A stretch of 44,211 nt of DNA from a virus (lineage: Duplodnaviria; Heunggongvirae; Uroviricota; Caudoviricetes): positions 1-44,211 of IMG/VR virus record IMGVR_UViG_2917413769_000009. One strand, given 5' to 3'. The position numbers and the translations under genes were made by a program. Of this stretch, positions 1 through 37,309 are shown in pieces. How positions within the stretch are numbered: the first letter of the stretch is position 1; each line of letters opens with the position of its first letter. Below the pieces are notes generated by a model that was not told where the DNA came from, ran no database searches, and saw only the letters and a program-made list of their open reading frames with translations.

Positions 1-1929
1 TTATTCCTCCAATTGTTTAAGACTGCGGCTGCGAATCTCTTGTTGCAGCTTCTCGATCACTTCATTTACGTCCATGCTTCCCAGGTCTTTACCACGGCGG
101 GTGCGAACGGCAACTTTGCCAGATTCCACCTCTTTATCACCACAGACCAGCATATATGGGACGCGACGCAAAGTGTGCTCGCGGATTTTAAAGCCAATCT
201 TCTCATTTCTCAAGTCTGCTTTAACACGAATGCCCGCATTTGATAGTTTTTGCGTCAATTCGTTAACGTATTCAGACTGTGAATCCGTAATGTTCATGAT
301 AACAACCTGAACCGGCGCAAGCCAGGTCGGGAAGAAACCAGCGAACTCTTCGGTCAGGATACCGATGAAACGTTCCATCGACCCAAGAATTGCACGGTGA
401 ATCATTACCGGAACCTTACGCTCGTTGTCTTCGCCTACATAGGAAGCGCTCAGACGAGACGGTAAGGAGAAGTCCAGCTGTACTGTACCGCACTGCCATG
501 CACGATCGAGGCAGTCATACAGGGTAAATTCAATTTTCGGACCGTAGAACGCGCCTTCACCCAGTTGATACTCAAACGGGATGTTGTTTTCTTCCAGCGC
601 AACTGCCAGGTCCGCCTCAGCACGATCCCACATTTCGTCACTGCCAATACGTTTTTCAGGACGAGTGGAAAGCTTGACCACGATCTTCTCGAAGCCAAAA
701 GTGCTGTACATATCATAGACTAAACGGATACATCCGTTAACTTCATCGCGAATTTGTTCTTCAGTACAGAAGATATGCGCGTCATCCTGGGTAAAACCAC
801 GCACGCGCATCAGGCCGTGCAGGGATCCTGACGGCTCGTTACGGTGGCAGCTACCGAACTCGGCCATACGCAGCGGCAGATCGCGATACGACTTCAGCCC
901 CTGGTTAAAGATTTGTACGTGACCCGGACAGTTCATCGGCTTAATGCAGTATTCACGGTTCTCAGAAGAGGTGGTGAACATTGCATCTTTATAGTTTTCC
1001 CAGTGACCGGTTTTTTCCCACAGGACGCGGTCCATCATAAACGGGCCTTTAACTTCCTGATACTGGTACTCTTTCAGTTTAGAGCGAACGAACACTTCCA
1101 GTTCACGGAAGATGGTCCAGCCGTCATTATGCCAGAACACCATACCCGGCGCTTCTTCCTGCATATGGTACAGGTCGAGCTGTTTACCGATTTTACGGTG
1201 GTCGCGTTTAGCGGCTTCTTCCAGACGCTGCAGATACGCGTTGAGGGCTTTTTTATCTGCCCACGCAGTACCATAAATACGTTGCAACATTTTGTTGTTG
1301 CTGTCGCCGCGCCAGTAGGCCCCTGCCGTTTTCATCAGTTTGAAATGGTGGCAGAAACGCATATTCGGTACGTGCGGACCGCGGCACATATCGACATATT
1401 CTTCGTGGAAATAGAGGCCAGGCTGGTCATCATGGGCGATGTTTTCGTCCAGGATGGAGACTTTATAGCTCTCGCCGCGTTTAACGAACGTTTCACGCGC
1501 TTCGTGCCAGCTGACTTTCTTCTTAATGACGTCGTAGTTTTTCTCAGCAAGCTCATGCATCCGCTTCTCGAGTGCTTCGACATCTTCCTGGGTTAACGTG
1601 CGGTCAAGATCAACGTCGTAATAGAAACCGTTGTCAATAACCGGGCCGATTGCCATTTTGGTATGCGGCCAAAGTTGTTTAATTGCGTGCCCTAACAGGT
1701 GCGCACAGGAGTGACGAATGATCTCCAGACCTTCTTCGTCTTTAGCGGTAATGATCGCCAGTTTAGCGTCGTTTTCAATCAAATCGCACGCATCTACCAG
1801 TTCGCCATTAACGCGCCCTGCGATACAGGCTTTCGCCAGACCTGGACCAATGTCCAGCGCAACATCCATGGGGCTTACAGCGTGGTCGTAATGGCGTTGG
1901 CTGCCATCAGGAAGAGTAATAACAGGCAT
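1..1929 (-). CDS. thrS: threonine--tRNA ligase (ThrRS)
   Basis: 642-aa ORF, complete (stop at 1-3, ATG at 1927-1929). Translation [16 protein letters not shown]...[10 protein letters not shown] matches the E. coli ThrRS sequence as I recall it over its full length. Confidence 0.97.
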
Positions 1930-2100
1930 GTTATATCCTTATTTGCAGTGGTGACCCACACGAAAGATCACATACAAAGAGAAAATTTGTTTGTTTTCAA
2001 TTCATTGCGCATCCATCTAGCCAACAGTCGCTAAATTGGTACACAATTTGGTACACAAATGAAAAATCGACACAGCAAGTTTTTCACCCAGTAAAATCAT
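1930..2100 (-). promoter_or_regulatory. thrS 5' leader / translational operator and promoter region (approximate extent)
   Basis: Immediately upstream of the thrS ATG; E. coli thrS is known to be autoregulated through a structured leader of about 160 nt. Boundaries were not determined from the sequence. Confidence 0.35.
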
Positions 2101-2514
2101 GGTAACACTAAAAAAGTAGTGATTGCACTATCTCTGTTTGACATTGACTAACATTGTCATCGCTTCAATGAAGTACATCGTCTAACCAGGCTGTTTTAGT
2201 TGATAATTGTGACTTTATATCGCTGATTGTTGGTACAAACGGAAAAGGAATGAGACAAAAAATAACACTATTTATTCATCGAATTAATGGTAACCACAAA
2301 TTAATACAGATGCACACCATCCGAACCTAAAGAAAGATAAGCGGAAGGTTTCCTGATAGTGCCGCCAGCACCTGACAATGATCTAGTTAATTCTCACGAC
2401 TAGCGACTACTAGCACTGTCGGCATATAAAGCTCACCAGGGTATGAGGTCAGATGATGGAGAAAAGAGGCTGAGGTGATAGTTGCCGATGATACAATATC
2501 GGCAACGTGCTTTT

Positions 2515-2808
2515 TCACCCACAATTAACTAACCGCCAGACCAGCAGACATGCCACCACCGGCACAGCAAAATCCATCAGGCTTGCCACATCCCAAGCGC
2601 GCGGATCAAAACCGCCCCACCACGGCATATTCATACGCTTGCCATGCCCGAACATTTCAATCCAGCGATATTCTGCCTGGGTGTGTTCACGCGCAATGAA
2701 GAACGTACAACCGGCTATAGCACCGTAAGCCCAGTTTCCGGTAAAAAGACCAATCAGTAACTGCGCAGCCACAGCACAAAGCGCATGAAGGAAAGGTGTT
2801 ATATCCAT
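2515..2808 (-). CDS. small predicted membrane protein (97 aa), last gene of the tail-fibre operon
   Basis: ORF with strong SD (AAGGAGG) 10 nt downstream of the preceding gene. Hydrophobic segments FLHALCAVAAQLLIGLFTG and LMDFAVPVVACLLVWRLV. No recognised family. Confidence 0.5.
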   Translation of the reverse strand: MDITPFLHALCAVAAQLLIGLFTGNWAYGAIAGCTFFIAREHTQAEYRWIEMFGHGKRMNMPWWGGFDPRAWDVASLMDFAVPVVACLLVWRLVNCG

Positions 2809-2818
2809 TACTCCTCCT

Positions 2819-3523
2819 TTATCCGATATCGCTTCGGGAAGTTGATAACAACTTTAATTCTGACTCAAGTTCATCAACTCTTTCAGTCAGTTTCTGGATA
2901 TGGTGAATCAGTGGAACAACCAGACGTTCGTACATTACACCTTCGGCAACAAGGCCATTGCTGGAAATAGCTTCAGGAGCATCATTCTCGTTAGCTGGTC
3001 GCCAGTGTACAAACTGAGGGGCAATTTCTCCTAATTCCTCGGCAATCAACCCGTAGAATCCCCAGTCACGCCTGTCATTTTCGCATTGCGACCTGTACCA
3101 CACAGGGCGCATCTTGAAAATGAGATCGGCGTGCTCTGAATCTATCGTCTCTACTGAATGTTTATAGCGAATAGACGATGTTGACCGCAGTACAGACGAA
3201 ATTGCGGGGTCAGGATTAAGATAAAGGTTTGCCGCCGCTGTAGTCGTGGCCAAATTCCATAAATAAAACGCTTCTCGACCTGTCAGCGGGTAAAAATCAC
3301 CGCCATAACGACCGCTTTCCAGATCGTTCGCTTCCACTTTGTTTTTCAGCTTATTATCAACTTCAGTTTTTGTGTATCTGGTGCTGATATCCTGCTTTGC
3401 ACTGGTCATATCAATCTGAAGCGTTGATACTTTTCCGTTAATTGAGGAAATATCTTCCTTAGTTTTACTGACATCTCCCTTTAGCGTGGTGATATCTCCT
3501 GGAATTACTGTCGATGTAGCCAT
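2819..3523 (-). CDS. tail-fibre-like protein with N-terminal coiled coil and C-terminal intramolecular chaperone (peptidase S74-like) domain
   Basis: 234-aa ORF with SD GAGGAAG. C-terminal segment SIRYKHSVE...GFYGLIAEELGEIAPQFV...YERLVVPLIHHIQKLTERVDELESELKLL follows the pattern of auto-cleaving chaperone domains of tailspikes/fibres (GxIAQE-like motif followed by a coiled coil). Confidence 0.6.
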   Translation of the reverse strand: MATSTVIPGDITTLKGDVSKTKEDISSINGKVSTLQIDMTSAKQDISTRYTKTEVDNKLKNKVEANDLESGRYGGDFYPLTGREAFYLWNLATTTAAANLYLNPDPAISSVLRSTSSIRYKHSVETIDSEHADLIFKMRPVWYRSQCENDRRDWGFYGLIAEELGEIAPQFVHWRPANENDAPEAISSNGLVAEGVMYERLVVPLIHHIQKLTERVDELESELKLLSTSRSDIG

Positions 3524-3532
3524 TTTTCTTCC

Positions 3533-3814
3533 TCACATCCAGCCACGAAGTTGATGCTCAACAGCAACCGCGTATTCATCGAATAATGACGATATTTGCG
3601 AATCATTAATGATGCGCACGTTTACAAAATATCCGTCTTCCTTAACACATACCGGTTCGCCATCTTCAGTCAGTTCTCCGGTTTCTTTGTACACGTTACC
3701 TATCACGTCAATAAGAATATCATCCTGCATCGTCTCGTCGTCATAATAGCCAGTGCTATCCATAAAGGCCGAAAAGTCGGCCCTGTCTGCAAATTTGAGT
3801 GTTAAATCTTTCAT
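3533..3814 (-). CDS. hypothetical acidic protein (93 aa), translationally coupled to stf; possible fibre assembly factor
   Basis: ATG at 3812-3814 overlaps the stf stop (ATGA overlap). Acidic composition, no recognised motif. Confidence 0.5.
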   Translation of the reverse strand: MKDLTLKFADRADFSAFMDSTGYYDDETMQDDILIDVIGNVYKETGELTEDGEPVCVKEDGYFVNVRIINDSQISSLFDEYAVAVEHQLRGWM

Positions 3815-6213
3815 TTAATACTCTCCCCCATTTGTGCCTCAGTTAATTCTTTATGCCAAATGCGTAAATTTTTCACATGACCGAACAGGTGTCTGTTGCC
3901 ACTGGATGATTGTCCACCGATATTAATATTACCGGCAGTATAACGTTGCAATGTATGCAGAGACGGGGAGCTGCTACCTAAAATTCCATCAACAACAACC
4001 TGCAACTGTTTATCTTCTGTAAACTTAAAGCCAGTAACAAATTTCCTTTTCTCTCTATTCCCATATGCTTTATATTCTGTTTTTGTTCCTTTGCCATTGG
4101 TGATAATTAGCCTTTTACCACGAGTGGTAAAACCAAAATACATATAACTTTCATCAGAAACTTCAGTCGTCGCCCCTGTAATTGAGATATTAAGCAAACG
4201 CGCAGAGCCTTCTAAATTAGGCATTTCAGAATCCCAATTAACATTAACTTCCATGAGAACACTAATTGGTGGAGTTGCCCAGTTGAAAGGTATAGGTATG
4301 ATTACCTGGTCACTTGCTCTCGTGGCACCGACCTCTGTTGTGATGATAAAAGATGAGGCGTTTAGTCCCTTTTCGAATTGAGGGGTTGTTAACATTAATT
4401 TATCGCCAGACTTGATTGATCGTTGATGTGCTCCAAACTCAAAACGCCCATACATATTTTTGGCTTCTGGTGATTTGTAGGTAAACTCAACACGAATCCA
4501 TCCATTAGACTCTCTGAATATGTTATAAGTTGCCGCCTCACCTCCAGAATAACTCAACATATCGCCAGTCTCGCAATCAATATATGCGCCAGCGGTCAGT
4601 GTGTTACTTGAGCCATCGTCGTTAACATATGATATTCTTGGACGCAACGTGATAATACCATCCCCACTTACTTTTTTAACTCTGCAGGATAAAGTAACTG
4701 ATTCATTTGCCGAAACTGAAATAACCCTGGTATATCCAGTAGAAATTAATGTCGCCCTTTCAGTTGTGGATGTTTCTTTAACGCCAAACAAACCATAACT
4801 GAAACCATACTCATCAACTCCCGTGGTAATAGTTAAGTTAGCAGTGTCATAGTTCCACGATGCTGGTGTATTCGTATAAGAAAAAGTATTCGTTCTCTGA
4901 CCTTCAATGAGCAGACCATCTTTTTCAAAACGTGGTTCATTTATCACTGATTCAGCAAAACACCCAGACTTATCTATATACGTTGCAGTTGACGCCCTGG
5001 TAAATGAAACAACCTTTTCAGACGGCAATGTAATAACATCGTCACCAACTGTGATGCTCTTATACCCAGGAGCAAACCCGGTAATCATATCCAGTGAATC
5101 GTTAAACGGTATCCACACATCAGGCAGCGGCTGTAAGACATATTTATACGGCTCTGCTGCCTGGCTTGCATACTCTCTGGCTGCGTCTTCACTTTCTTTA
5201 GCTGCCGTCTGGCTTGCAGCGGATGCTTTCGCCGAGTTCGCCGCTGCAGTCTCGCTTGTCTTTGCATTGGTTTCACTGGTTTTTGCTGCTTTTTGGCTGT
5301 TGGCTGATGCAGTGGCAGAAGCAGCCGCCGCGCTTGCAGAACCAGCTGCGGCACTCTCGCTTTGGGCTGCTGCATCCTGACTGTTTTTCGCCGCAGTTTC
5401 GCTGGCTTTGGCATTTGTTTCGCTGGTCTTCGCTGCCGCCTGGCTGGACTTTGCGTTTGTTTCGCTCGTTTTCGCGGCTTTCTGGCTGTTAGCCGCAGCT
5501 GTTGCTGATCCAGCTGCTGAAGTCGCCGAACCAGCTGCAGCATTCTCGCTTTCGGCTGCTGCATCCTGACTGCTTTTCGCCGCAGTTTCACTGGCTTTGG
5601 CATTTGTTTCGCTGGTCTTCGCTGCCGTCTGGCTGGACTTTGCGTTGGTTTCGCTCGTCTTTGCGGCTGTCTCGCTGTTTTTCGCGTTGGTTTCTGATTT
5701 TTTGGCTGCTGTCGCGGAGTTTGCCGATGCAGTCTGTGAGGTCGCTGCCGCCTGTGCGCTGTTAGCTGCATTCGTTTCTGAGGTTTTCGCCGCATTTTTC
5801 GATGATGCCGCTGCAGTTTCGGATTTCTTTGCCGCCGCTGCGCTCTGAGAGGCGGCTTCGGCGTTGCGTGCCGCTTCTTCCACCATTTCCTCAAAACGAC
5901 GCAATGCCTCAGGCATGACATCATCTTCCGTCATGGCACCGAGAAAATCATTCAGCGTACCTGGTCTGGAACCTTCATAGACGGTAATGATCCCGGCATG
6001 TGAAGGCGGAAAACCTTCAACCAGCAGGGTGACGCTGTACTGGCCATACTCAACATCCATGCTGTAACGCCCGGCTTCATCCGGATTTTCAGAGGCTACC
6101 GTGTTCACCAGTACCGTGGTGCTGTTACGCTTTGCCTTCAGTTGAATAGTGCAGTTCTGTATTGGTTTTCCCGCACCATCTTTCAGCACACCTGAGATTT
6201 TTACTGCTGCCAT
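3811..6213 (-). CDS. stf: side tail fibre protein (lambda Stf-like N-terminus, Ala/Ser/Thr-rich repeat shaft, LamG/ConA-like C-terminal domain)
   Basis: N-terminus MAAVKISGVLKDGAGKPIQNCTIQLKA...YSMDVEYGQYSV matches lambda Stf as recalled; start set at the ATG at 6213 (the ORF track starts at a GTG two codons upstream). C-terminus ...HLFGHVKNLRIWHKELTEAQM resembles the end of LamG-type jelly-roll domains. Confidence 0.85.
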   Translation of the reverse strand: MAAVKISGVLKDGAGKPIQNCTIQLKAKRNSTTVLVNTVASENPDEAGRYSMDVEYGQYSVTLLVEGFPPSHAGIITVYEGSRPGTLNDFLGAMTEDDVMPEALRRFEEMVEEAARNAEAASQSAAAAKKSETAAASSKNAAKTSETNAANSAQAAATSQTASANSATAAKKSETNAKNSETAAKTSETNAKSSQTAAKTSETNAKASETAAKSSQDAAAESENAAAGSATSAAGSATAAANSQKAAKTSETNAKSSQAAAKTSETNAKASETAAKNSQDAAAQSESAAAGSASAAAASATASANSQKAAKTSETNAKTSETAAANSAKASAASQTAAKESEDAAREYASQAAEPYKYVLQPLPDVWIPFNDSLDMITGFAPGYKSITVGDDVITLPSEKVVSFTRASTATYIDKSGCFAESVINEPRFEKDGLLIEGQRTNTFSYTNTPASWNYDTANLTITTGVDEYGFSYGLFGVKETSTTERATLISTGYTRVISVSANESVTLSCRVKKVSGDGIITLRPRISYVNDDGSSNTLTAGAYIDCETGDMLSYSGGEAATYNIFRESNGWIRVEFTYKSPEAKNMYGRFEFGAHQRSIKSGDKLMLTTPQFEKGLNASSFIITTEVGATRASDQVIIPIPFNWATPPISVLMEVNVNWDSEMPNLEGSARLLNISITGATTEVSDESYMYFGFTTRGKRLIITNGKGTKTEYKAYGNREKRKFVTGFKFTEDKQLQVVVDGILGSSSPSLHTLQRYTAGNINIGGQSSSGNRHLFGHVKNLRIWHKELTEAQMGESIK
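5200..5880. repeat. tandem imperfect coding repeats within the stf shaft
   Basis: Two near-identical blocks at about 5365-5480 and 5560-5680, giving the duplicated protein blocks AAKTSETNAKSSQ...AAKTSETNAKASETAAK(S/N)SQDAAA(E/Q)SE(N/S)AAAGSA. They generate long spurious ORFs on both strands. Confidence 0.7.
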
Positions 6214-6224
6214 ATCCACTCCAC

Positions 6225-6250
6225 AAAAAAGCCCGCCTGAACCGGCGGGC
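6225..6250 (-). terminator. rho-independent terminator-like hairpin downstream of lom
   Basis: Plus-strand GCCCGCC-TGAACC-GGCGGGC (6231-6250) preceded by A6 (6225-6230), i.e. hairpin followed by U6 on the minus-strand transcript. Confidence 0.55.
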
Positions 6251-6277: not shown

Positions 6278-6877
6278 TCAGAATTTATAACCGACACCCA
6301 CGATGAAACCGTCAGTGCGCCAGTCGCCACTGCCGGAACCTTCATAAGCAAGGTCAATGGCCATGGATTCGGTCGGGTTAAACTGCACGCCAGCCCCCCA
6401 CGCCAGAGACGTGTTGCTGTGGCGACCGCCATCACTTCCGGTCAGCACATCGTGCGTTTTCCCCTTGTTGTCAGTTACGCGGAGATAATCCCCGGAGAAC
6501 GTCGAAACACGGCTGTAAGCCACACCCGCCATCGCATAAGCACTGAACCATTCATTCACGCGTACAGACGGCCCCGCCATCACGCTGAACCAGCGGTTAC
6601 GCACTGAATCTTCATGCCAGCGGGTATCGCTGTAACGGGTAATCTGGCGATTCTTGTCTCCTGCATAGCTGAATGACGTCACCAGCCCCAGCGTGTCCGT
6701 AAATTCATAACGGTATTTCACGTTAATGCCCTTCAGGTCATCGTTGCCGGGCATATCAGTATGGGACTGAAGATACCCGCCGCTTAGAGTGGACTGATGC
6801 TCTGCTGCACTCGCTGGCGTACCAGCGGCGACCAGCCAGACTACTGCAGACAGAATAACAGCACATAATTTACGCAT
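6278..6877 (-). CDS. lom: Lom/Ail/PagC-family outer-membrane beta-barrel protein
   Basis: 199 aa with signal peptide [24 protein letters not shown], alternating beta-strand pattern and C-terminal ...GVGYKF. Sits in the lambda lom position between J and stf. Confidence 0.9.
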
Positions 6878-6944: not shown

Positions 6945-9900
6945 TCAACTGATACTGATACCGGCTGTTGATTTCTTCATCACGACAACAAGAAGGTCGC
7001 TGATACTGGTCGTTGGCGTCCAGTTATTAGCACCATATGAAGAAACATTGAAAGTCAGGGTGACATGACCGTGTCCGGCAGGCATATCAATGACGGATGA
7101 AAATACCCTGCTGACATCCGTCGCGGGTTGCTGAAAGATTTCCTGTCCGTTCTTCAGCACCTGCAGCTTACAGGTTGAATACCAGTATGACTGTTGGTTG
7201 TTGCTGTTGAAGTTTTCATGCTTACCACCGCGAAACAGAACAGGTGGGATTACTATCTGACGGTCAAAAGCCTGGTCATCGTACACCGTGACCGTTATTG
7301 TACCGCTGGCATAACTGCTATTTCTCGGAAAGGCTTTTCCCACCGTTTTGACAATATCACCTTCAATCTGGTTGGCAGACAGTTTTCCCAGAATCTGACA
7401 GTTCTGGTTAATCGTGACATTATTGAGCGTCCCGGAGTTCGCATTCACGTTACCGCTGATATCGGCATTTTTCGCCGTCAGCCGCCCGTCCGGTGTCAGG
7501 GAAAATACCGGAGGATTGCCGCCGCTGGTAATGGTGGGAGCCGTCAGATATTTCAGGAACACTTCATTCATAAATATCTGATCGCCCTGACCAACAAACA
7601 TCGGCTTTGTGTTGCCATTCGCAGGATTAATCATCGCAATCCTGTCCGCCGCCAGCAGCACCTGACTCTGCATACCGTCAGGGGTGTTCTCAATACCGGC
7701 ACCAATACCCGCGATATAAAGGCGTCCGTCCTGCATCTGCTGCAGCTTCACAGCCCACATGCTGTTCAGGTTATTATTTGTATCAACCTGAACCTTCTGT
7801 ATCTGCAGGATTGCCGCACTCTGGTCTTCCAGTTTCTTATTGACGGTCTGCGTGATTTCATTGCTGACATCCGTAATGGACATCCTGATTTCAGCCAGGT
7901 CAGGCGCAAGCTGACCATTATCAATCTGCGTCCACAGCTCCTGAGCCAGATGGGTTTTCCCTATCTCTCCTTTGAAAAAATCCAGATAGCCGGATGCATC
8001 ATCACTCGGCTGGCCAACAGCCTCCACAAATGCCGATTTGCCAACGGTGTTCACACTGCGAACGTAAAAATAATAATCATGGCCCGGTTTGATATTGATA
8101 CTGGCGGCTATCCAGTACAGCGCCGTGCCAAGATAGCGGGCTGTGGTTTCAACCTGCCTGATATCGGTAATCCGCTTTTCCGAGAACCAGAATTCAAACT
8201 GTACCGTCGGGTCATAAACGGCAAGATGCGGCGTTGCGGTTATCTGAAAATAGCCCGGCGTCAGATCAATCCTCGACGGTGCTGCCGGTGCGGCAATCCG
8301 GAACGATACCGACGCCGGATCGCCCTGCTGCCCCCACGCATTTACCGCCCGGACTGTCAGCCTGTAGTTCCCCAGCGCCAGTTGCGTGAAGCGGTATGTG
8401 GTTTCCGTCGTCCGGGCCGTGCTGACCAGCCGCTCACTGCCGTCGTCCGCTGTTACGGTCAGACGGAGCAGGAAGCTCACGCCCTTCACCACCTTCGGTG
8501 TGTCCCATCGCGCCAGCACCTGATATTCCCCGCTGTCTGCAGTGACTTCTGCGGTCAGGTGCTGCACCGCTGGCGGCGTGACACCATTCACCGTGCCACT
8601 CTGGTCGCCGTCAAAGTGCGCCCCGTTATCCACGATGGCTTCTTTTTCCGGTACATGCTGCACGGCGGTGATGGCATACGTGCCGTCGTCGTTCTCACGG
8701 ATACTCACGCAGCGGAACAGGCGCTGGCGCAGCGTCGGCAGCTTCAGCCCCCATACGCTGTATTCAGCAACACCGTCAGGAACACGGCTCACTTTTACCT
8801 TCACGCCGTCGGTGACGGACTGAACCTCCACGCTGACCGGATTGCCACTTCCGTCAACCAGGCTTATCAGCGTGGTACCGGAGGATGGCAGCGTGATTTC
8901 ACGGTCGAGCGTCAGCGTCCGGGTCTGGCTGTTCACCGCCAGCACGCGACCACCGATGCTGATACCGGCATAGTCATCATCACAGATTTCAATGACATCG
9001 CCCGGTACATGGCGAAGCCCTTCTGCGCCCACGCTGAAGTCCACGGTCTGTGTCTCCAGCAGCTCCGTTTTAATCAGCCACAGCCCGGCGCGGTGTGCCT
9101 GCCCCCGGCTGGTACAGCCAAAGGCATCCATTTTCGTGACGTTACGACCGTAACGGAGAATGGCCTGCGTGTCCTCCACAAGCTCTGTTGCCGTCTCCCA
9201 GCCGTTATCCGGGTCAATCCAGTTCACTTCAACGGCATTATGGCGGTCCTTCAGGGCGCTGAAGCTGTAGCGGAACGGCGCACCATCATCCGGCATCACC
9301 ACATTACTGCGGTTATAGGTCCATACCTTATCCGACGGTCGGTCCTGCACGAACGTCAGCGTCTGCCCGTTCCATACCGGCATACAGCGCATCGCCGAGC
9401 AGAAATCACTGAGAACATCCCACGCCTTACGCTGTGTGGTCAGGTAAGCGTTACAGGTGATGCGCGGCTCCGTGCCGCCAAAACCGTCCGGCACCGACTG
9501 GTCGCAATACTGGCCGATGACATACAGCGCCCATTTGTCCACATCCGCCGCACCAAGACGTTTCCCCATGCCGTAGCGCGGGTGGGTCAGCATATCCCAC
9601 AGACACCAGGCCATGTTGTTGCTGTATGCTGGCTTAAACGTTCCGTCCCAGATACCGCTGTATTGCCGCGTCTGCGGGTTATAGTTCGACGGCACCTGCA
9701 GAATGCGCCCGCGAAGATGATAATTACGACTCACCTGCTGGCTGCCGAACTGTTCCGAGTCCACCTGCACGCCGACCAGTGCCGTGTTCGGGTAGCACTG
9801 TTTCACATCGATGATTTCGGTGTATGACGACCAGAGCGTTTTGTTCTGCAGCTGGTCTGTGGTGCTGTCCGGCGTCATCCTGCGCATCCGGATATTAAAC

Positions 9901-10427
9901 GGGCGCGGCGGCAGGTTACCCACCACCACCGAGGCCAGATACTGCGAGGTGGTTTTGCCCTTAATGGTGATGTCTTTTTCCGTCACCCAGCCACCGTTAC
10001 GTTGTATCTGAACCAGCAGGCGGACTTCCGACGGATTCCTGTCACCCTTTGAGGTGGTTTCCACCAGTGCCTGCACACCGAAGGTAAAACGCAGACGATC
10101 GATGTTTGCAGACGTGATGGTCCGGGTGATCGGCGTGTCATATTTCACTTCCGTACCCAGCACCGTCTCGGAACCGGAGGATTCAAATCCCTCCGGCGGT
10201 GCCTGCTCCTGCTCACCTGCCCGGAACACCACCGTGACACCGGAGATGTTGGCATCCCCCTCACTGTCCAGCACCGGTGTACTGTTCAGCAGCACGCTTT
10301 TTAATCCATCCACCGGACCTTCAATCGGCCCTTCGCTGATGGCATCAATCACACTCAGTAACTGCGTGGATTTCAGGTTGTCCTTCGCTTCGCGCGGGGT
10401 ATGCCCCTTACTGCTGCCTTTACCCAT
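6945..10427 (-). CDS. J: tail tip host-specificity protein J
   Basis: 1160-aa [44 protein letters not shown]..., near-colinear with lambda J as recalled. Confidence 0.97.
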
Positions 10428-17869: not shown

Positions 17870-18336
17870 TTACTCAGCACCCCATCAATAGCCTGATTCA
17901 TATGCTTCATGGCAACCTGCGCTGCCAGCTCCTCTGTCGTATCGAAAGCCGGGCGAATGAATGGATGCGCGGGCATGTTTATCGTTCCCAGCTCCACGAA
18001 ACGCCAGTAAAACGCATTTCGGGGATCGCTGGCTTTCATGCTGTTATCACTGTTTCCGGTTCGCAGGTTCCGTCCACGAATGTGGACACCCGAGATAATT
18101 TCCCCCCGACGCTTTGAACGCTGAGTGAGAACAACCACATTTTTCTTCAGTTTCCCGGTTCGCTCCGGCGCACGTTCAACAACTGCATCCCGCATAACCT
18201 CTGCACCGGCACGGGAGGCATCGCGAAGCACCTTATTACTCTCTGCTCTGCTGAGAAGTTCCAGATCTCTTGCAATATCCGCCAGGCCAGAAAAATCCAG
18301 ACTAAAATCCGTCACATTCCACCTCTCTGGCTGCAA
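17866..18336 (-). CDS. tail component, HK97 gp10-like
   Basis: 156-aa ORF, ATGA-coupled to the downstream gene; assignment by synteny. Confidence 0.7.
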   Translation of the reverse strand: MQPERWNVTDFSLDFSGLADIARDLELLSRAESNKVLRDASRAGAEVMRDAVVERAPERTGKLKKNVVVLTQRSKRRGEIISGVHIRGRNLRTGNSDNSMKASDPRNAFYWRFVELGTINMPAHPFIRPAFDTTEELAAQVAMKHMNQAIDGVLSK

Positions 18337-18650
18337 AGTATTTCAAGCCTGGAGGATCGTGCGTCTGGGATCGGCGGCCCGTCGATATTCAGAATGGCTC
18401 CCTTGAATGCCCCTGTCAGCACTTTCAGACGTGAGGCGGCCGTCACATCGCGCCGGAATCGCATCCAGACTCTTACTGTTGTCTGCGCTGTTTCCGCACC
18501 GCCCGATATACGTTCCCGCCCACTGATCCCCTTAACCTCTGCCCATACCGTAGCCCCCTCTTTCAGGGTTTCCTCCAGGTGACCAGAAGGGGTACGGGAG
18601 GTCGTAATATTCAGAATAACCACGCGATCACGTAATCTTCCTGCCTGCAT
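18312..18650 (-). CDS. head closure / head-tail adaptor protein
   Basis: 112-aa ORF in the HK97 gp7-like position. Confidence 0.7.
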   Translation of the reverse strand: MQAGRLRDRVVILNITTSRTPSGHLEETLKEGATVWAEVKGISGRERISGGAETAQTTVRVWMRFRRDVTAASRLKVLTGAFKGAILNIDGPPIPDARSSRLEILCSQRGGM

Positions 18651-18659
18651 GAAATCCTC

Positions 18660-18965
18660 CTATGTTCCGGGATGAAACCGATACATTCGGAGTCCGGTAT
18701 AGAAAAAATCAGGCACAGCATCCTGCATTTCCCTGTTCTCGTACCAGTAGCCAACCAGTTGCATAAGACGCAGCTTTATCAGCGGTGTTATTACAAGCCC
18801 GGTCGTATCCTGATCAGGAACAGTTTCATCGTGAAGTGTCCGGTTTAAAAACTTTTCAGCCTCTTCTCTGGCTGCTGCCAGATACATCATAAGAAGTGCA
18901 TTCTCCTGTTCATTGTCATCATCAATCCGGCACTGAACACGAAGCTCTTCCAGAGTAGGCATCAT
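18660..18965 (-). CDS. head-tail connector protein (gp6-like)
   Basis: 101-aa ORF directly after the capsid gene region; MMPTLEELRVQCRIDDDNEQENALLMMYLAAAREEAEKFL... is typical of gp6-like connector proteins. Confidence 0.75.
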   Translation of the reverse strand: MMPTLEELRVQCRIDDDNEQENALLMMYLAAAREEAEKFLNRTLHDETVPDQDTTGLVITPLIKLRLMQLVGYWYENREMQDAVPDFFYTGLRMYRFHPGT

Positions 18966-20434: not shown

Positions 20435-21121
20435 TTAGAAGTTCAGATTTTTCAGTGCATTCAGTGCAGAGCCCACATCCTCAGCGTCGCGCAGGGACAG
20501 TGCGCCATAGCCCCCGGCCATGAATGCTTTGGCCTGGGTACGGGAGAGTCCGACATCACGCAGGACTCTTTCGATTTTTTTCTGTTCGGGGATTTCACCG
20601 CGGGCCAGCGCGTTCTTGACGTCGCTGATCCGCGCCTCGTCGTTAGACGGGAACGTCACCAGACTGACTTCCCAGAGGTCGATTTCTTTCAGCAGAAAGG
20701 CTTCTTTACTCCGGTCGTATTCCCAGTCTTTCAGGACGTACCCAATAGAAAGGCCGGTTAACGAACCGGCCTTCATGTGTGCATGTGCGCGTTTTGCGAG
20801 GGGATCATCATCAATGAGCAACCGTCCCCTGACGTAAAGCCCGACATCGTCTTCCTTCATTTCGGTATAAACACCGATGGGTTCATCCATGCGGTGCTGC
20901 CAGAGCAGCGCAGGTAACGCTTTTCTGTCACTCCACGCCCGCAGGGAAGCAGCAAATGCCCCGGACATCACCACATCATCGTGGCTGTCCTTTACACCAA
21001 AGACGGAGCCATACCCTTCAAACTCACCGGAGTCACTGACAGATTTCAGACTCAGCGGTACATCAAGACGTTGTTTCGTCTGCATTGGCGTTATCCTTCT
21101 GCTTACCGGCTTTACTGCCAT
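20435..21121 (-). CDS. prohead maturation protease (HK97 family)
   Basis: 228-aa ORF between portal and capsid genes. Start uncertain (overlaps the portal 3' end). Confidence 0.9.
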   Translation of the reverse strand: MAVKPVSRRITPMQTKQRLDVPLSLKSVSDSGEFEGYGSVFGVKDSHDDVVMSGAFAASLRAWSDRKALPALLWQHRMDEPIGVYTEMKEDDVGLYVRGRLLIDDDPLAKRAHAHMKAGSLTGLSIGYVLKDWEYDRSKEAFLLKEIDLWEVSLVTFPSNDEARISDVKNALARGEIPEQKKIERVLRDVGLSRTQAKAFMAGGYGALSLRDAEDVGSALNALKNLNF

Positions 21122-22304
21122 CGGAGGGTTTCGTGGTCATGTTCATCGGTGTGAGATAGACATCACCACCGGGACGCGGATTCATATCTTCCAGGTCGCG
21201 GCAGTCATTGGGAGAGTAAATTCCCCAGTTGATCCCGGTGGCGTAGGCTTCAAAACGGGACTTCATATCCCCGCGCAGTAACGCCCCGGCGTTAAATTTG
21301 GCGTAATAAATGCCCTGCTTACTTTTTCGTACCAGTCCGGTGTTGATCCGCTGCTCAATGCGGGTCAGATACGGCACCAGTGAATAGTTGATAAATCCCA
21401 GCCCCAGCTCTTCGATATTGTTGAAGGTGGCGCGATCGGTGTTCTGCACCATATGCAATGGCACCCGGAACAGACGACAGATTTCTTCAAGCTGAAACTT
21501 GCGGGTTTCCAGGAACTGGCTGTCCTCGGCGTTCAATGCCATCGACTTCCAGTCCAGCCCCATCTCAAGGATCATCGGGCGGTGAGCATTGCCAAGCCCG
21601 GTGTGACGCTCCTCAAAATCTTTCTTCAGGCGCTCATAAGCCTGATCCGACAGCGTCTGTTCTGTACGCAACACACCGGACGTCACCGCGCCATTGCTGA
21701 ACAGTCTGGCACCGTGTTCTTCAGTCGCTGCTGCCAGCGATATTGCCTCGCGGGCATAGGCGATGGGATTCAGTCCCACCAGACCGTCCAGCGTCAGCGT
21801 GCGCACATGCCAGATATCCTCCTGGGTCAGCACATCCGTTGAGCCGTCCGGGAATGTGACCTGATAGACCGGCTCCCAGCTACTGTTAAGCTTCGGTACC
21901 ACACAGCCGGGATCGACGGGCAGCAGTTCAGCCACTTCGCCAAATGCTTTCACTTTGTAGGCGTAAAAGTTGCCCCGCAGGCACAGACAGGTGACCACCA
22001 GCTCCCAGAACTCCTGCGGCGTCATATAGCCATTAGGATGCGAGGAGATCAGCTTATGCAGACGTTCGCCAGTGGCTCTCTGCTTCAGACCGCCATTCAG
22101 GTGATACAGGTTGCAGGGCAACATCCCGACCGACTCCGCCAGCACCCTGACGCAGGAAAAAACCGCCGTCAGTCGCATGGCCCGCTGACTGCTGATCTGC
22201 TTTCCGGTATAGGTGTCGTAGGACAACCCGATAGCATCCGCCAGCTCTGCTGGCGTGGTCACCGGTGCGTCACTTTTTCGTTGAAATAATCCCGAAAAGA
22301 ACAC
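21063..22304 (-). CDS. portal protein (HK97 family)
   Basis: 413-aa ORF downstream of the terminase, with an acidic/basic C-terminal tail. Confidence 0.93.
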   Translation of the reverse strand: MFFSGLFQRKSDAPVTTPAELADAIGLSYDTYTGKQISSQRAMRLTAVFSCVRVLAESVGMLPCNLYHLNGGLKQRATGERLHKLISSHPNGYMTPQEFWELVVTCLCLRGNFYAYKVKAFGEVAELLPVDPGCVVPKLNSSWEPVYQVTFPDGSTDVLTQEDIWHVRTLTLDGLVGLNPIAYAREAISLAAATEEHGARLFSNGAVTSGVLRTEQTLSDQAYERLKKDFEERHTGLGNAHRPMILEMGLDWKSMALNAEDSQFLETRKFQLEEICRLFRVPLHMVQNTDRATFNNIEELGLGFINYSLVPYLTRIEQRINTGLVRKSKQGIYYAKFNAGALLRGDMKSRFEAYATGINWGIYSPNDCRDLEDMNPRPGGDVYLTPMNMTTKPSDGSKAGKQKDNANADETTS

Positions 22305-31953: not shown

Positions 31954-33330
31954 TCATACGTCAGCCCCTTGTGCATATCGTCTGCCACGTGCAGCAGGTG
32001 CATTTGATGCTGTGCAAATCTGTCTGGCTTCATCCTGGTCACATGCAACAAAGTGTCCGTTGCAGAACCGCTGGTAAACCGTACCAAGTGAGCCAAAACG
32101 GTTTTTCGTCACGATGATTTCAGCAAATGGCGCGGCGCTACTGTTCTCGTCATATACTGCTTCCCGATAGAGCATGATGATTGAGTCTGCGTCCTGTTCA
32201 ATGCTTCCTGAATCACGCAAATCTGCGTTTGTCGGGCGTTTGTTTGGTCGCTTCTCAACATCGCGCGAAAGCTGACTCAGGGAGATAACAGGCGTTTTCA
32301 GGTCTTTCGCCATCGCCTTAAGGCTTCCTGAGATGTGAGCAATTGCGAGGTCGTTGCGGTCTGCTTTCGGCTTCTCAATCAGGCCAAGATAATCCACCAT
32401 GATTAGTGACAGGTTTGGATTTTCCTGTTTGTGCCGTTCTGCGATTGAGCGTATTTCTTCGACCGATAACCGCGAGGCATCGACCACCCATACATCCAAA
32501 TCTGCAAGCTGACTCATGCCGTTAGCAACGCGCGCCCAGCCTTCGTCATCCATCGATGCAGGATTTCGCAGCACGCTAACCGACATCCTCCCGGCGTTGG
32601 CGATGCTTCGCTCTGCAATCTGCAATGCGCTCATTTCCATCGAGAAAATCAACACTCCGCGCCGGACGTCAGAACCAGGAATAACGCGGCTTGCAACGCC
32701 TTCGGCAATCTTCAGCGCCAGTTCGGTTTTCCCCATACCAGGACGAGCAGCGATTATCACCAGGTCTTCTGCGTTCATCCCTCCGGTGATGGCATCAAGT
32801 TCTTCGATTCCGGTCTTCAGGGTATCTGACTCTTCTCCGTTCCTCAGACGCCTGTCAAGCGTGTCAGTGTAGTCAGTGATGATTTCCCCTAACCGCACCG
32901 GTTTAACCTCGTCACGGGGCTTTCTGATGGCTGAAAGACGCTTTACAAGTTCATCCATCGCCTGACTCGATGCGTCGATGGTTCCGCTCTGAATTGGTTC
33001 ACGCATTTCATCCATGATTTCCAGCACCAGACGGCGGTGATAGTTATCCGCGACCATTCCGGCATATCCCTTCAGGTTTGCGGCACTCGGGCAGTTTTTG
33101 CTGGTCATCAGGATTGACGTGAAATGCTCCTCTCCGCATTCCTCAGCAACCATCAGCGCGTCGATTAGGTTTCTGTTTCTCGCCTGCTTGCGGATAACCT
33201 CGAAGGCTTTCCGGTAGAGCGGAATTGAAAACGCTTCCGGCTCAAGCGTTGCCAGAACGTCACTGGCGGTTGGAGTTAATCCACCAATCAGCAGGCCACC
33301 GATAACGCTCGCTTCGATATCCTGTCTCAT
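31954..33330 (-). CDS. DnaB-family replicative helicase
   Basis: 458 aa with Walker A GMGKT, Walker B IMVDYLG and the C-terminal RecA-like core; in the position of lambda P. Confidence 0.92.
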
Positions 33331-34148
33331 GCAATCCCCCTGTCTGCAAACTTCCCTTCCCGAACTCCCGTTAACGAGTCTTCCCTCAACAGGTAATCAA
33401 AATCAGCCGTCCAGCCCGTGTCGTTGTCTCCGAAGTAAAACGGCTTGGCCTGATGCACAAACGCCCTGACATACGCTCTGAAACCGTCTACGTTTGGCGT
33501 TTTCAGTTGTGGGATGATTTTCTTCAGGCGGCGTTTTCGTTTCTCGTTGACCGCAACAGCGTGTGGAAGTCTGTCACCGACTTCGGTGTTGTAGGCGTTC
33601 AGGAAGGATTCGTAGTCGATTCGTTCTGCCTTGCGACGTTCAGGTTTAACCTGCCCATCGCCGCCCCCGTTAGGGGGTAAGGGGGTATTTGTATTTATTG
33701 TCTTTTGTATATTGTCTTTTGTGTTTAGCTGACTTGGCTTATACCCATTAGCCGACTCGGCTAATGTTTTATTAGCTGTTTTAGCTAATGTTAAGCTGTC
33801 CTGGCTAATCCACTGAGAAACCACCTTGTTCACTCCTATTTTCACGCCATCAGCAATGAGGAATTTACGCTCAATAAGCTGGCGCTTGGCAGCGCAAACA
33901 TGAGTGTGATGAATACCTGTCATGGCTGCTATCTGCGTATTTGTGAGTCGATCCATCGGCTTATTGAATCCGTATGTCTTGCGCATGATAGCGAGCATCA
34001 CCTTCAACTGCCGGACGGTTAAATCAGCCATCAGCAGACTGTCGGTAATCTCGTTAGCAACGCGCATGAAACCATCTTCGGTATCTGCCACGCGATGCTC
34101 CACGACCTCCAGTTGAGGCCTGTAATCAGCTAACTTAACGACGCCCAT
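33327..34148 (-). CDS. O: replication initiator (O-like)
   Basis: 273 aa with ori iterons inside the coding sequence and a proline/glycine linker ([10 protein letters not shown]); ATGA-coupled to the helicase gene. Confidence 0.88.
33685..33808. other. origin of replication: four iterons (consensus TTAGCYGAYTYGGCTAA) followed by an AT-rich tract, inside O
   Basis: Iterons at 33725-33741, 33748-33764, 33772-33788, 33791-33808, each an inverted repeat; AT-rich tract 33685-33724; same architecture as lambda ori. Confidence 0.65.
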
Positions 34149-35061: not shown

Positions 35062-35778
<717 letters not shown>

Positions 35779-35864: not shown

Positions 35865-36443
35865 TTGAGTATACCAACTGTCTCTCTATGGAATGAGATG
35901 GGGTTAATCCCCCCAATAGACGAGGCTGATCCTACAAGCCATACTCGTTCCCCATACAAAATGGATATAGTACGCTTTGTTAGTACTTTTTCGCTTAGCC
36001 CTGCAAGGATTAAAATCCTTAAGGGTTTTCTTAATTTTCGTGTTTCACTCACTCAAGCAGGGCTGGTTGAAGGTTTTCAGTGGGTAGATGGAAGCTTCAC
36101 AGAACATATTGAACTTATTGAAAAAAGGCCACCGAATGATGTCGATGTTGTGACCTTTTTTCAATTCAGTAATGGCGATAATGATGCAATCGTAATCGGT
36201 AGAAAGCCAGAGCTATTTGATCATGATTTTGTTAAGAAGGAGTTTTTCGTAGATTCCTACTTCCAAGAACTTAATCTACCAAGTCATGAGCTTGTTGAAA
36301 TGACTGTATATTGGTACAGTATGTGGGCACATAGACGCGATCTGTCGTGGAAGGGATTTATCCAAATCCCGTTAAACCCACAACTTGATGTTGTGGCAAT
36401 GACTATACTTAATTCGGCTGCTACTGAGGGGGTCAAACAATGA
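35865..36443 (+). CDS. hypothetical protein A of the cI-linked two-gene cassette (rexA position); possible nucleotidyltransferase-like fold
   Basis: 192-aa ORF from a TTG start (AAGG 7 nt upstream), or 181 aa from the ATG at 35898. Not hydrophobic; motif GFQWVDGSF-x14-DVDVV. Confidence 0.7.
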   Translation: MSIPTVSLWNEMGLIPPIDEADPTSHTRSPYKMDIVRFVSTFSLSPARIKILKGFLNFRVSLTQAGLVEGFQWVDGSFTEHIELIEKRPPNDVDVVTFFQFSNGDNDAIVIGRKPELFDHDFVKKEFFVDSYFQELNLPSHELVEMTVYWYSMWAHRRDLSWKGFIQIPLNPQLDVVAMTILNSAATEGVKQ

Positions 36444-37309
36444 ATCGTAATGATTATGTTTTCGCTCTCAGTGAGCGCGAGCAAATAAGTAATCTATTAA
36501 AAAATATGCCAACAAGTCATTCTATTAGCCGAAAAAGCTTAGAAGACCGTCTGGAGAAAGTTGAGCGATTAATTTCACAAGCTGACGTTCGAGAACATGA
36601 ACCTACGCATGCTGTGTTAACTTTTAGAGGCCCAACAGTAGTTGGCACGCATGGCATTTCAGCAGTATTTGGAACAAAAGCTATATCTTGTTTTAATGAT
36701 GCAATAGCTTACTTGGCAACCTCTTTCAATGGCCCACTTCCTGCATCAGGCAAGATACCAAACATAGAAAATAATCATCTCATGATTACCGCGTCAGCCC
36801 GTGGTTCTTTCGGATTCGTACTTGAAGAGTTTAGACCTGATGCTCCTCTTGAATTCGATGAAGAAACCCCAGTAGCAAAAGCTATTAATAAGGCCAGAAA
36901 AATATTTCAGGCAAGCTTGGATAATGATGATGAAGAATTGTCTGATGCTATAGAAAACTTAGACTCTCGGGCCTTAGATAAAATCAGAGCGTTCATTCAT
37001 TATCTGCATGAAAATAAAACAGTTTTTACACTTAAAAGCCAAGGTTTTAGCATCGTTTTTAGAGAGCCAAAACAGCTTGAAGCTGTATATCAACATCTCA
37101 GCAATGATAATATTCAGCAGGAAAAAATTATTGAGAACGTTATATTTTTGGGAACTCTTCCTAACAAGCGCCAATGTGAATTTATAGTTTTAGGTAACAC
37201 TGATATCAGAACCGCTAGCATTGACAAAGCTGTAGATGACCCAGATATTATAAACAAGCACTTAGGAAGCGTTGCAACAGCCACGTTCCTGAAAAAAAAC
37301 TGTTGGTAA
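36440..37309 (+). CDS. hypothetical protein B of the cI-linked two-gene cassette (rexB position)
   Basis: 289-aa ORF, ATG overlaps the stop of gene A (ATGA), SD GAGGGGG; AT-rich; no TM segments; the only motif noted is R-x6-H (RAFIHYLH) in a helical stretch. Confidence 0.7.
   Translation: MNRNDYVFALSEREQISNLLKNMPTSHSISRKSLEDRLEKVERLISQADVREHEPTHAVLTFRGPTVVGTHGISAVFGTKAISCFNDAIAYLATSFNGPLPASGKIPNIENNHLMITASARGSFGFVLEEFRPDAPLEFDEETPVAKAINKARKIFQASLDNDDEELSDAIENLDSRALDKIRAFIHYLHENKTVFTLKSQGFSIVFREPKQLEAVYQHLSNDNIQQEKIIENVIFLGTLPNKRQCEFIVLGNTDIRTASIDKAVDDPDIINKHLGSVATATFLKKNCW

What the first reader, a model, noticed from the sequence alone, without database searches (positions are those of the whole stretch)
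2819..3523. Short fibre-like protein consisting of a coiled coil plus an intramolecular chaperone domain
The C-terminal 110 or so aa have the hallmarks of auto-cleaving intramolecular chaperone (peptidase S74) domains of tailspikes and fibres, but the N-terminal part is only about 100 aa of coiled coil with no obvious receptor-binding domain. It sits in the place where lambda has tfa. It could be a second minimal fibre or an adapter cassette.
Basis: partly seen in the sequence, partly recalled or inferred. Interest (0 to 1): 0.45.

Follow-up and report, generated by a model that had tools for sequence, protein, structure and literature searches.

The report
Minimal second tail-fibre subunit, self-cleaving chaperone
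This prophage gene encodes a very short tail-fibre-type protein (docking peptide, short coiled coil, small tip, self-cleaving folding domain) that is common and already annotated in E. coli phages, so it is an ordinary member of a known class whose exact role has never been tested.

Summary
ORF 2819-3523 (minus strand, 234 aa) passes Pfam's Peptidase_S74 threshold. It has the Ser116/Lys121 pair with the same spacing as phage T5 pb1, and its predicted C-terminal domain matches solved intramolecular-chaperone structures. Residues 11-49 are a clean heptad coiled coil.

The gene is not a decayed remnant: dN/dS is 0.14, and full-length homologues at 55-60% identity occur in virulent T1-like phages. 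It is the third gene of a conserved cassette: a large lateral fibre with a lectin-like end, a 93-aa acidic protein, then the S74 protein. The cassette is shared by lambdoid, T1-like and 9g-like coliphages.

The slot holds alternative alleles of 234, 294, 346 and 351 aa. They share only the first 27-32 residues, and all end in S74.

Residues 50-234 are a generic C-terminal cassette also found on hundreds of longer fibres. No specific receptor-binding domain is evident.

Best reading (inferred): a minimal accessory subunit that docks by its N-terminus on the lateral fibre, trimerises, and sheds its chaperone after Thr115.

The main rival is a trans-acting fibre chaperone, which is how two BASEL phage records annotate it. 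I rate it less likely.

This is a known family of low novelty. Function is untested.

The parts
2819..3523 (-). Whole ORF, 234 aa (26.2 kDa): short S74-terminated fibre-type protein
   Evidence: dN/dS is 0.14 among 13 distinct 234-aa alleles.
3494..3523 (-). Residues 1-10 (MATSTVIPGD): conserved N-terminal peptide, inferred docking element
   Evidence: All 77 evaluable downstream ORFs in IMG/VR loci start MATSTVIP (one reads MAISTVIP). The peptide is shared by the 234-, 294-, 346- and 351-aa alleles and by T1-like and 9g-like phages. Model confidence is low here. The docking role is inferred, not shown.
3377..3493 (-). Residues 11-49: heptad coiled coil, presumed trimeric
   Evidence: Heptad register. 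Indels among homologues are in multiples of 7. AlphaFold2 helix 9-47 has pLDDT about 80. Weak similarity to the P22-type tail needle gp26 and to DT57C LtfA repeats.
3314..3376 (-). Residues 50-70: YTKTEVDNKL motif and linker, where the generic C-terminal cassette begins
   Evidence: Longer fibres (P0177-P0183) align with the window protein from residue 50 onward at 56-58% identity. The motif also occurs in DT57C LtfA.
3179..3313 (-). Residues 71-115: conserved beta-rich segment ending at Thr115 (the predicted mature C-terminus)
   Evidence: Conserved across the short family, with dN/dS 0.09. The motif TTxxAN...RSTSS is generic to this S74 subfamily. Confidence in the monomer model is low.
3161..3178 (-). 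Codons for S116 (3176-3178) to K121 (3161-3163): predicted autocleavage site T115|S116 and the Ser/Lys dyad
   Evidence: Pfam alignment starts at S116. S116 is nearly invariant and K121 invariant. Same spacing as T5 pb1 Ser1264/Lys1269. Codons read directly from the sequence.
2822..3178 (-). Residues 116-234: S74 intramolecular chaperone domain (13.7 kDa), ending in a heptad helix (residues 197-230)
3533..3814 (-). 93-aa acidic protein (pI 4.05), always found between the large fibre gene and the S74 gene; role unknown
   Evidence: phrog_1361. Linkage. AlphaFold2 pLDDT 84. No informative structural relative.
3811..6219 (-). Stf-like lateral fibre, 802 aa as listed (homologues suggest the ATG at 6213): phage_tail_N anchor, Ala-rich repeat shaft, lectin-like distal domain
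   Evidence: Pfam phage_tail_N E 2e-66. NCBIfam GTA_spike_fiber E 1e-18. Alignment A2. Variable distal block 3886-4888.
2515..2808 (-). 97-aa predicted membrane protein, the last gene of the operon and of the prophage. It is a neighbour and probably not part of the fibre.
   Evidence: phrog_1443. Present in phage 21 and lambda-like phages that did not match the S74 gene in the near-identity DNA search. Host DNA begins at about 2505.

Best explanation
The gene encodes a minimal accessory subunit of the phage's lateral (side) tail fibre.

Inferred steps:
1. Three chains associate through the C-terminal S74 intramolecular chaperone domain.
2. That domain templates folding of the short beta-rich segment (residues 71-115) and zips up the 40-residue coiled coil.
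3. Ser116, with Lys121 as partner, then cuts the chain after Thr115.
4. The 13.7-kDa chaperone leaves. A 3 x 12.5-kDa stub remains: docking peptide, coiled coil about 6 nm long, and a small generic tip.
5. The conserved N-terminal peptide (MATSTVIPGD...) attaches the stub to a conserved part of the Stf-like fibre or to the 93-aa protein. This would make a branched or extended fibre, as proposed for LtfB on LtfA in phage DT57C.

The 234-aa allele is the shortest of several exchangeable alleles in this slot and has no specific receptor-binding domain that I can detect. It may bind something invariant, or mainly fill and stabilise the docking site.

Shown here: domain identity, conserved catalytic residues, heptad coil, purifying selection, cassette linkage and allele exchange. 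Inferred: trimer state, cleavage, presence in virions, docking partner and ligand.
For: - S74 domain by HMM, by fold and by the conserved Ser/Lys pair.
- Heptad register, and coil length changes in multiples of 7, as expected for a structural shaft.
- Purifying selection in every segment: dN/dS 0.09-0.22.
- Full-length homologues at 55-60% identity in about 45 virulent T1-like phages.
- The large fibre, the 92/93-aa protein and the S74 protein are linked in lambdoid, Drexlerviridae and Nonagvirus phages. All 77 evaluable IMG/VR loci keep the MATSTVIP start.
- Alleles of 234, 294, 346 and 351 aa share only the first 27-32 residues, and all carry S74. The 346-aa allele has weak, non-significant similarity to T4 gp34 in its middle part.
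- DNA mosaic: conserved blocks flank two variable blocks, the S74 body and the Stf distal domain.
- The two S74 alleles each pair with 7-8 different Stf distal alleles, four of them shared. That argues against a chaperone matched to one fibre tip.
- Precedent: in DT57C and phiEco32 the second fibre protein docks by a conserved 45-aa N-terminus, both fibre proteins end in S74, and LtfA appeared unstable without LtfB (PMC4728585).
Against: - No virion proteomics, cleavage assay or complex structure exists for this protein or any close homologue in the literature I could search.
- The mature part has no identifiable receptor-binding domain. Its tip segment is generic and conserved rather than variable.
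- The monomer model is unreliable for residues 58-123, and no multimer prediction was possible.
- The docking partner is unknown. The 93-aa protein's fold gave no clue.
- S74 and Stf distal alleles are still statistically associated, though that may only reflect linkage.
Confidence: 0.55

Rival explanations
1. Trans-acting assembly chaperone. The protein is not a virion component. It docks transiently on the nascent Stf-like fibre and uses its trimerising S74 domain and coiled coil to nucleate trimerisation of that fibre, playing the part Tfa plays for lambda Stf.
For: - It sits just downstream of the stf-like gene, near where lambda has tfa.
- It lacks a receptor-binding domain.
- The BASEL phages KarlJaspers and PeterMerian annotate the 57-60%-identical homologue as 'putative lateral tail fiber chaperone'; others call it 'chaperone of endosialidase'.
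- The Pfam scan returned nothing but weak coiled-coil-type hits besides S74, so no lambda-type Tfa is evident in the cassette.
Against: - The S74 domains whose mechanism I read about (T5 pb1; the DT57C fibres) act on the polypeptide they are part of and then cut themselves off.
- The catalytic Ser/Lys pair and the segment before the cut are conserved under strong constraint. A pure trans-chaperone would not need that.
- Other alleles in the same slot, with the same N-terminus, are 294-351 aa and look like fibre proteins rather than chaperones (weak gp34 similarity).
- The same 234-aa allele is found with 7 different Stf distal alleles.
- Those database names come from the Pfam family title ('Chaperone of endosialidase'), not from experiments.
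Confidence: 0.2
2. Receptor-binding mini-fibre in its own right. The small tip exposed after cleavage (residues 71-115) binds a conserved surface structure such as an LPS core sugar, giving a second, invariant adhesin beside the variable lectin-like Stf domain.
For: - In T5 pb1 the binding site lies at the very end of the fibre and is unmasked when the chaperone leaves.
- The tip segment is the most constrained part of the protein: dN/dS 0.09.
- It is conserved between lambdoid and T1-like phages that plate on E. coli K-12.
Against: - The same segment is generic to hundreds of S74 fibres with very different upstream domains. That suggests a structural interface with the chaperone rather than a ligand site.
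- 45 residues per chain is very small for a binding domain.
- There are no binding data.
Confidence: 0.15
3. Non-functional leftover. The ORF is a deletion derivative of a longer allele (such as the 346-aa one) that lost its receptor-binding middle and is drifting.
For: - It is the shortest allele in the slot and lacks the middle domain.
- The 1385-position profile phrog_3299 aligns it to its C-terminal end only.
Against: - dN/dS is 0.14 overall.
- It is intact in 28 of 68 complete downstream ORFs from the IMG/VR loci.
- It is present in inducible or plaque-forming phages (IdasGreatGrand, PhiR49_1).
- It is conserved at 55-60% identity over its full length in about 45 virulent T1-like phages with compact genomes.
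- Its coil is unrelated in sequence to the 346-aa allele beyond residue 32.
Confidence: 0.03

Closest known systems
L-shaped/lateral tail fibre proteins of T5-like phages: T5 pb1, and DT57C LtfA and LtfB
   Same: - A C-terminal S74 intramolecular chaperone with the T|S....K cleavage motif.
- YTKTEVD-type helical repeats shared with LtfA.
- A two-gene fibre locus in which the second protein carries a conserved short N-terminus thought to dock on the first.
   Different: - Those proteins are 600-1400 aa with large receptor-binding regions; this one has 115 mature residues and none evident.
- A 93-aa gene intervenes here.
- The first fibre here (Stf-like) ends in a lectin-like domain and has no S74 domain of its own.
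Endosialidase (K1F endoNF) C-terminal chaperone and MyRF ICA domain (Pfam PF13884, peptidase family S74)
   Same: - Passes the Pfam threshold.
- The predicted fold matches 7dc3, 3gud and 3gw6.
- The Ser/Lys pair is conserved.
   Different: - Sequence identity is only about 25% or less.
- The upstream cargo here is a coiled coil plus about 45 residues, not a triple beta-helix tailspike or a transcription-factor domain.
- Autoproteolysis has not been tested.
Homologues annotated 'putative lateral tail fiber chaperone', 'chaperone of endosialidase' or 'tail fiber domain-containing protein' (KarlJaspers bas06_0035, SECphi27 gp79, BEBK14, E. coli PGAP entries)
   Same: True homologues with the same architecture and the same three-gene cassette, at 55-97% identity.
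   Different: They differ only in coil length (in heptad steps) and in host phage family. None has been characterised experimentally as far as I could find.
Lambda Tfa and other tail fibre assembly proteins
   Same: A small gene downstream of stf in a lambdoid late operon.
   Different: - The Pfam scan of this protein at E <= 1 listed only S74 and weak coiled-coil-type hits, no tail fibre assembly family.
- The domain present here acts on its own chain in the proteins where it has been studied.
- It is not the first gene after stf.
- PhiR49_1 keeps a separate tfa remnant further downstream.
P22-type tail needle gp26
   Same: Similar size. Trimeric heptad coiled coil with weak sequence similarity in the repeats.
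   Different: - gp26 has no S74 domain.
- It has a different location and role (it plugs the portal channel).
- The similarity is not significant (E 0.025).

Membership tests
[quoted passage not shown] | Match to the family HMM above the curated threshold | tested here: met
   26.1 bits against a cut-off of 22, E 1e-5, residues 116-172 aligned to profile positions 1-57 of 58.
[quoted passage not shown] | Catalytic Ser and Lys five residues apart at the start of the domain | tested here: met
   S116 and K121. K121 is invariant and S116 at least 90% conserved in 39 homologues. Same spacing as T5 pb1 S1264/K1269, with Thr before the Ser in both.
[quoted passage not shown] | ICA fold ending in a long C-terminal helix | tested here: met
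   AlphaFold2 pLDDT about 80 for residues 124-232. Foldseek: 7dc3 at E 1e-4 and probability 1.0; 3gud and 3gw6 follow but are weak (E 0.14 and 0.38). Heptad helix at 197-230. The model is a monomer, so the trimeric arrangement is not shown.
[quoted passage not shown] | Autoproteolytic release of the domain after trimer folding | not testable with these tools
   Needs expression of wild type and S116A followed by SDS-PAGE or mass spectrometry.
Phage tail fibre structural protein (virion component) | Trimeric fibrous region with an N-terminal attachment element, encoded in the tail-fibre locus | tested here: inconclusive
   The locus and operon fit. Heptad coil. The conserved N-terminus is shared by exchangeable alleles. 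Attachment and trimer state are inferred only.
Phage tail fibre structural protein (virion component) | Presence in purified virions | not testable with these tools
   No proteomic report found for this protein or a close homologue.
Tail fibre assembly protein (lambda Tfa / Mu gpU type) | Sequence match to a tail fibre assembly family | tested here: not met
   The Pfam scan at E <= 1 lists only S74 and weak coiled-coil-type hits. NCBIfam gives nothing relevant.
Branched two-protein lateral fibre (DT57C LtfA/LtfB type) | The second fibre protein's N-terminus is conserved independently of its distal part and is linked to a conserved region of the first protein | tested here: met
   The first 27-32 residues are shared by alleles that are otherwise unrelated up to the S74 domain. 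A conserved 400-bp DNA block spans the Stf 3' end, the 93-aa gene and the S74 gene's 5' end.
Branched two-protein lateral fibre (DT57C LtfA/LtfB type) | Physical attachment of protein 2 to protein 1 | not testable with these tools
   No multimer prediction or structure was available.

The most novel reading that the evidence does not exclude
The 234-aa allele is a receptor-blind 'placeholder' subunit. It docks on the lectin-type lateral fibre through the shared N-terminal peptide, possibly via the 93-aa protein. Its purpose would be only to stabilise or cap that fibre, or to regulate its exposure. Phages could then swap between a null stub and real second adhesins (the 294-351-aa alleles) by recombination in the flanking conserved DNA. 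A related variant: its S74 domain works in trans on the partner fibre.
Probability: 0.15. Interest if true: 0.5.

Novelty: new member of a known kind. Interest (0 to 1): 0.27.

Why it matters
S74-terminated fibres are a well-understood class, and this protein belongs to it, so the finding is mostly confirmatory.

Its modest value lies in the context. It is the smallest natural example I saw of a protein made of a docking peptide, a coiled coil and the generic S74 cassette. It sits in an exchangeable slot of a three-gene lateral-fibre cassette that moves between lambdoid, T1-like and 9g-like coliphages.

That makes it a convenient minimal system for three questions:
- What does the S74 chaperone need in order to fold and cleave?
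- How do second fibre subunits dock on a primary fibre?
- Can the slot be used to graft new receptor-binding modules onto temperate coliphages?

It also shows that the database label 'chaperone' for these genes rests on a Pfam family title and not on evidence.

Tried and rejected
- Profile search of alignment A4 against PDB sequences found nothing. A single-sequence search of the C-terminal domain gave only a weak DT57C LtfA hit. Residue-level mapping to solved S74 structures therefore rests on the Pfam alignment, Foldseek and the T5 paper.
- The AlphaFold2 monomer model is unreliable for residues 58-123. The tools offer no multimer prediction, so the tip structure and docking could not be modelled.
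- Fusion search. The top 120 listed homologues in each of the two searches (242 and 138 hits in all) are stand-alone 91-114-aa proteins, nearly all 92-93 aa. No fusion to a fibre protein was seen.
- PhiR49_1 against PhiR49_1_star. I hoped the 'star' variant carried a host-range change in the cassette. Its 31 differences lie in the terminase, portal and J genes.
- PADLOC gave no hit for the S74, 93-aa or 97-aa proteins, so a defence role was dropped.
- Seven literature searches found no experimental work on this short protein or on the three-gene cassette.
- Pseudogene or remnant reading rejected on dN/dS and cross-family conservation.
- Lambda-type Tfa assignment rejected: no tail fibre assembly family appeared in the Pfam scan.

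Full report
**What is there.** The window is a lambdoid prophage lying next to the host thrS gene. It has an HK97-type capsid, a large terminase, a DnaB-type helicase and a cI-like repressor with an S24 domain. Host DNA runs from 1 to about 2505.

The tail genes are on the minus strand in this order:

| Gene | Coordinates | Size |
|---|---|---|
| J | 6945-10427 | 1160 aa |
| lom | 6278-6877 | 199 aa |
| Stf-like fibre | 3811-6219 | 802 aa |
| small acidic ORF | 3533-3814 | 93 aa |
| flagged ORF | 2819-3523 | 234 aa |
| membrane protein | 2515-2808 | 97 aa |

The last four genes are packed like an operon. The stf stop overlaps the 93-aa start (ATGA). GAGGAAG lies 4 nt before the 234-aa ATG. AGGAGG precedes the 97-aa ATG.

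**Checking the observation.**
- Pfam Peptidase_S74 matches residues 116-172 at 26.1 bits, above the cut-off of 22.
- In 39 homologues K121 is invariant and S116 nearly so.
- The T5 pb1 paper gives the mature chain ending at Thr1263, with catalytic Ser1264 and Lys1269 (PMC4690869). The window protein reads Thr115-Ser116-Ser-Ile-Arg-Tyr-Lys121, the same pattern.
- An AlphaFold2 model built from the 39-sequence alignment is confident for helix 9-47 and for residues 124-232, and poor for residues 58-123.
- Foldseek against the PDB puts the MyRF ICA domain first (7dc3, E 1e-4, probability 1.0). The intramolecular chaperones 3gud and 3gw6 follow but are weak (E 0.14 and 0.38).
- Residues 11-49 have an unbroken heptad register: 75% I/L/V/M at a/d positions against 3% elsewhere.
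- Homologues differ in this segment by -7, -14 and +21 residues, with one of -11.

Only about 40-50 residues are coiled coil. Residues 71-115 are a conserved beta-rich segment before the cut.

**Is it a real, working gene?** Among 13 distinct 234-aa alleles from IMG/VR loci, dN/dS is 0.14 overall: 0.22 in the coil, 0.09 in the pre-cleavage segment and 0.12 in S74. Near-identical genes occur in the phages IdasGreatGrand and PhiR49_1. Homologues at 55-60% identity over the full length occur in about 45 virulent T1-like phages (Drexlerviridae). A decaying remnant is excluded.

**How common and how known.** A 1.5-kb query spanning the gene and its two small neighbours matches 1,920 of 5,426 complete E. 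coli genomes, 720 of them over at least 80% of the query. PGAP calls the gene 'tail fiber domain-containing protein'. Phage records call it 'chaperone of endosialidase', 'tail fiber protein' or, in two BASEL phages, 'putative lateral tail fiber chaperone'. I found no experimental study of it.

**The cassette.** The same three genes recur in several phage groups: a large fibre, a 92/93-aa protein, and an S74 protein.
- Lambdoid: the window, IdasGreatGrand, Tritos, PhiR47_1, PhiR49_1.
- Nonagvirus: ESCO3, JenP1.
- Drexlerviridae: BEBK14, KarlJaspers, SECphi27.

The large fibres have family-specific N-termini. They share a C-terminal region of about 440 residues. That region hits NCBIfam 'GTA_spike_fiber' and, weakly and in two homologues only, Laminin_G_3. 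This points to a lectin-like, probably glycan-binding end.

In 80 IMG/VR loci found through the 93-aa protein, all 77 that continue downstream have an ORF starting MATSTVIP (one reads MAISTVIP).

**Alleles in the slot.** Of 68 complete downstream ORFs, 28 are the 234-aa type (27 of them 91-97% identical to the window over the full length) and about 38 are a 346-aa type. The two types share only the first 27-32 residues. PhiR47_1 has a 294-aa allele, and JenP1 and ESCO3 have a 351-aa one. All carry S74. The middle of the 346-aa allele shows only weak, non-significant similarity to T4 gp34 fibre domains (E 0.15-0.26). Its C-terminal part, including the S74 domain, resembles phage S16 gp37 at a borderline E of 0.0014.

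At the DNA level there are three conserved blocks:
- 2511-2809, the 97-aa gene;
- 3480-3885, the first codons of the S74 gene, the whole 93-aa gene and the 3' end of stf;
- 4889-6230, the stf shaft and anchor.

They flank two variable blocks: 2810-3479 (the S74 body) and 3886-4888 (the Stf distal domain). This is the mosaic pattern expected for modules exchanged by recombination.

In 66 loci the Stf distal part falls into 11 clusters. The 234-aa allele occurs with 7 of them and the 346-aa allele with 8. Four clusters are shared.

**What the protein is made of.** An exhaustive profile search found 19,342 representative clusters at E <= 0.001.
- The best hits are mostly 300-1250-aa fibres whose C-termini align with window residues 50-234 at 56-58% identity.
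- Many more align from about residue 90 onward.
- Other short S74 proteins (212-281 aa) exist. They have Gly/Thr-rich N-terminal parts and the same TTxxAN...RSTSS motif before the cut.

So only residues 1-49 are specific to this family. The rest is a generic C-terminal cassette.

**Most likely mechanism (inferred).**
1. The S74 domain trimerises.
2. It folds the short tip and the coil.
3. It cuts after Thr115 and leaves.
4. The remaining 37.5-kDa trimer (three 12.5-kDa chains) docks through its N-terminal peptide on a conserved part of the lateral fibre or on the 93-aa protein.

The nearest documented precedent is DT57C and phiEco32. There a second S74-ended fibre protein has a conserved 45-residue N-terminus and is thought to attach to the first fibre protein. 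The first protein also appeared unstable without the second (PMC4728585, PMC10713586). I put this reading at 0.55.

**Rivals.**
- *Trans-acting chaperone (0.2).* This fits the position of the gene and the database labels. It fits poorly with the conserved cleavage site, with the larger fibre-like alleles that share the N-terminus, and with the pairing of one S74 allele with many Stf distal alleles.
- *Small adhesin for an invariant receptor (0.15).* This is compatible with the strong constraint on the tip and with T5, where the binding site is unmasked by cleavage. However, the tip segment is generic across unrelated fibres.
- *Remnant (0.03).* Contradicted by the selection data.

**Verdict.** The protein is an ordinary, widespread and already annotated member of the S74-terminated fibre class. 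Its exact role is untested. Interest is low to moderate.

Noticed in passing
[not shown]
   Followed up: partly
window 2515-2808 (-) and the junction at about 2505-2511: A 97-aa predicted membrane protein (phrog_1443) is the last prophage gene. Its stop codon lies within about 10 bp of where host DNA begins (host match 1-2505). The gene also occurs in phage 21 and lambda-like phages that showed no match to the S74 gene. The b region, tfa remnant and other genes that follow it in PhiR49_1 are absent here.
   Followed up: partly
window 3811-6219 (-): The Stf-like fibre combines a phage_tail_N anchor, an Ala-rich shaft and a lectin-like distal domain (NCBIfam GTA_spike_fiber). The shaft has a 189-bp tandem duplication (5339-5679) and a 42-bp periodicity. 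The variable part of the distal domain (3886-4888) falls into at least 11 allele clusters. The listed GTG start at 6219 is probably wrong, because homologues start at the ATG at 6213.
   Followed up: partly
window 35865-37309 (+): Directly after the cI-like repressor (35065-35778) lie a DUF6932 protein, which hits the PADLOC candidate defence family PDC-M63A (E 2e-10), and an overlapping 289-aa ORF with no family match. Together they may be a prophage-encoded defence pair in the position rexAB occupies in lambda.
   Followed up: partly
window 42155-42799 (+): A 214-aa ORF with an Invasin_D4 domain (E 3.5e-8) in the early-left region of the prophage. This is unusual cargo.
   Followed up: no
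window 1-2505: The thrS gene and its upstream region are only 96.5% identical to the best of 5,426 complete E. coli genomes. The host may be a divergent Escherichia lineage rather than typical E. coli.
   Followed up: no
L090/L091 (PhiR49_1 and PhiR49_1_star): The two deposited variants differ at 31 positions clustered in the terminase (18319-18718), the portal (20806-21162) and the start of J (32903-33448). None lies in the fibre cassette. The clustered pattern looks like recombination tracts rather than point mutations.
   Followed up: partly
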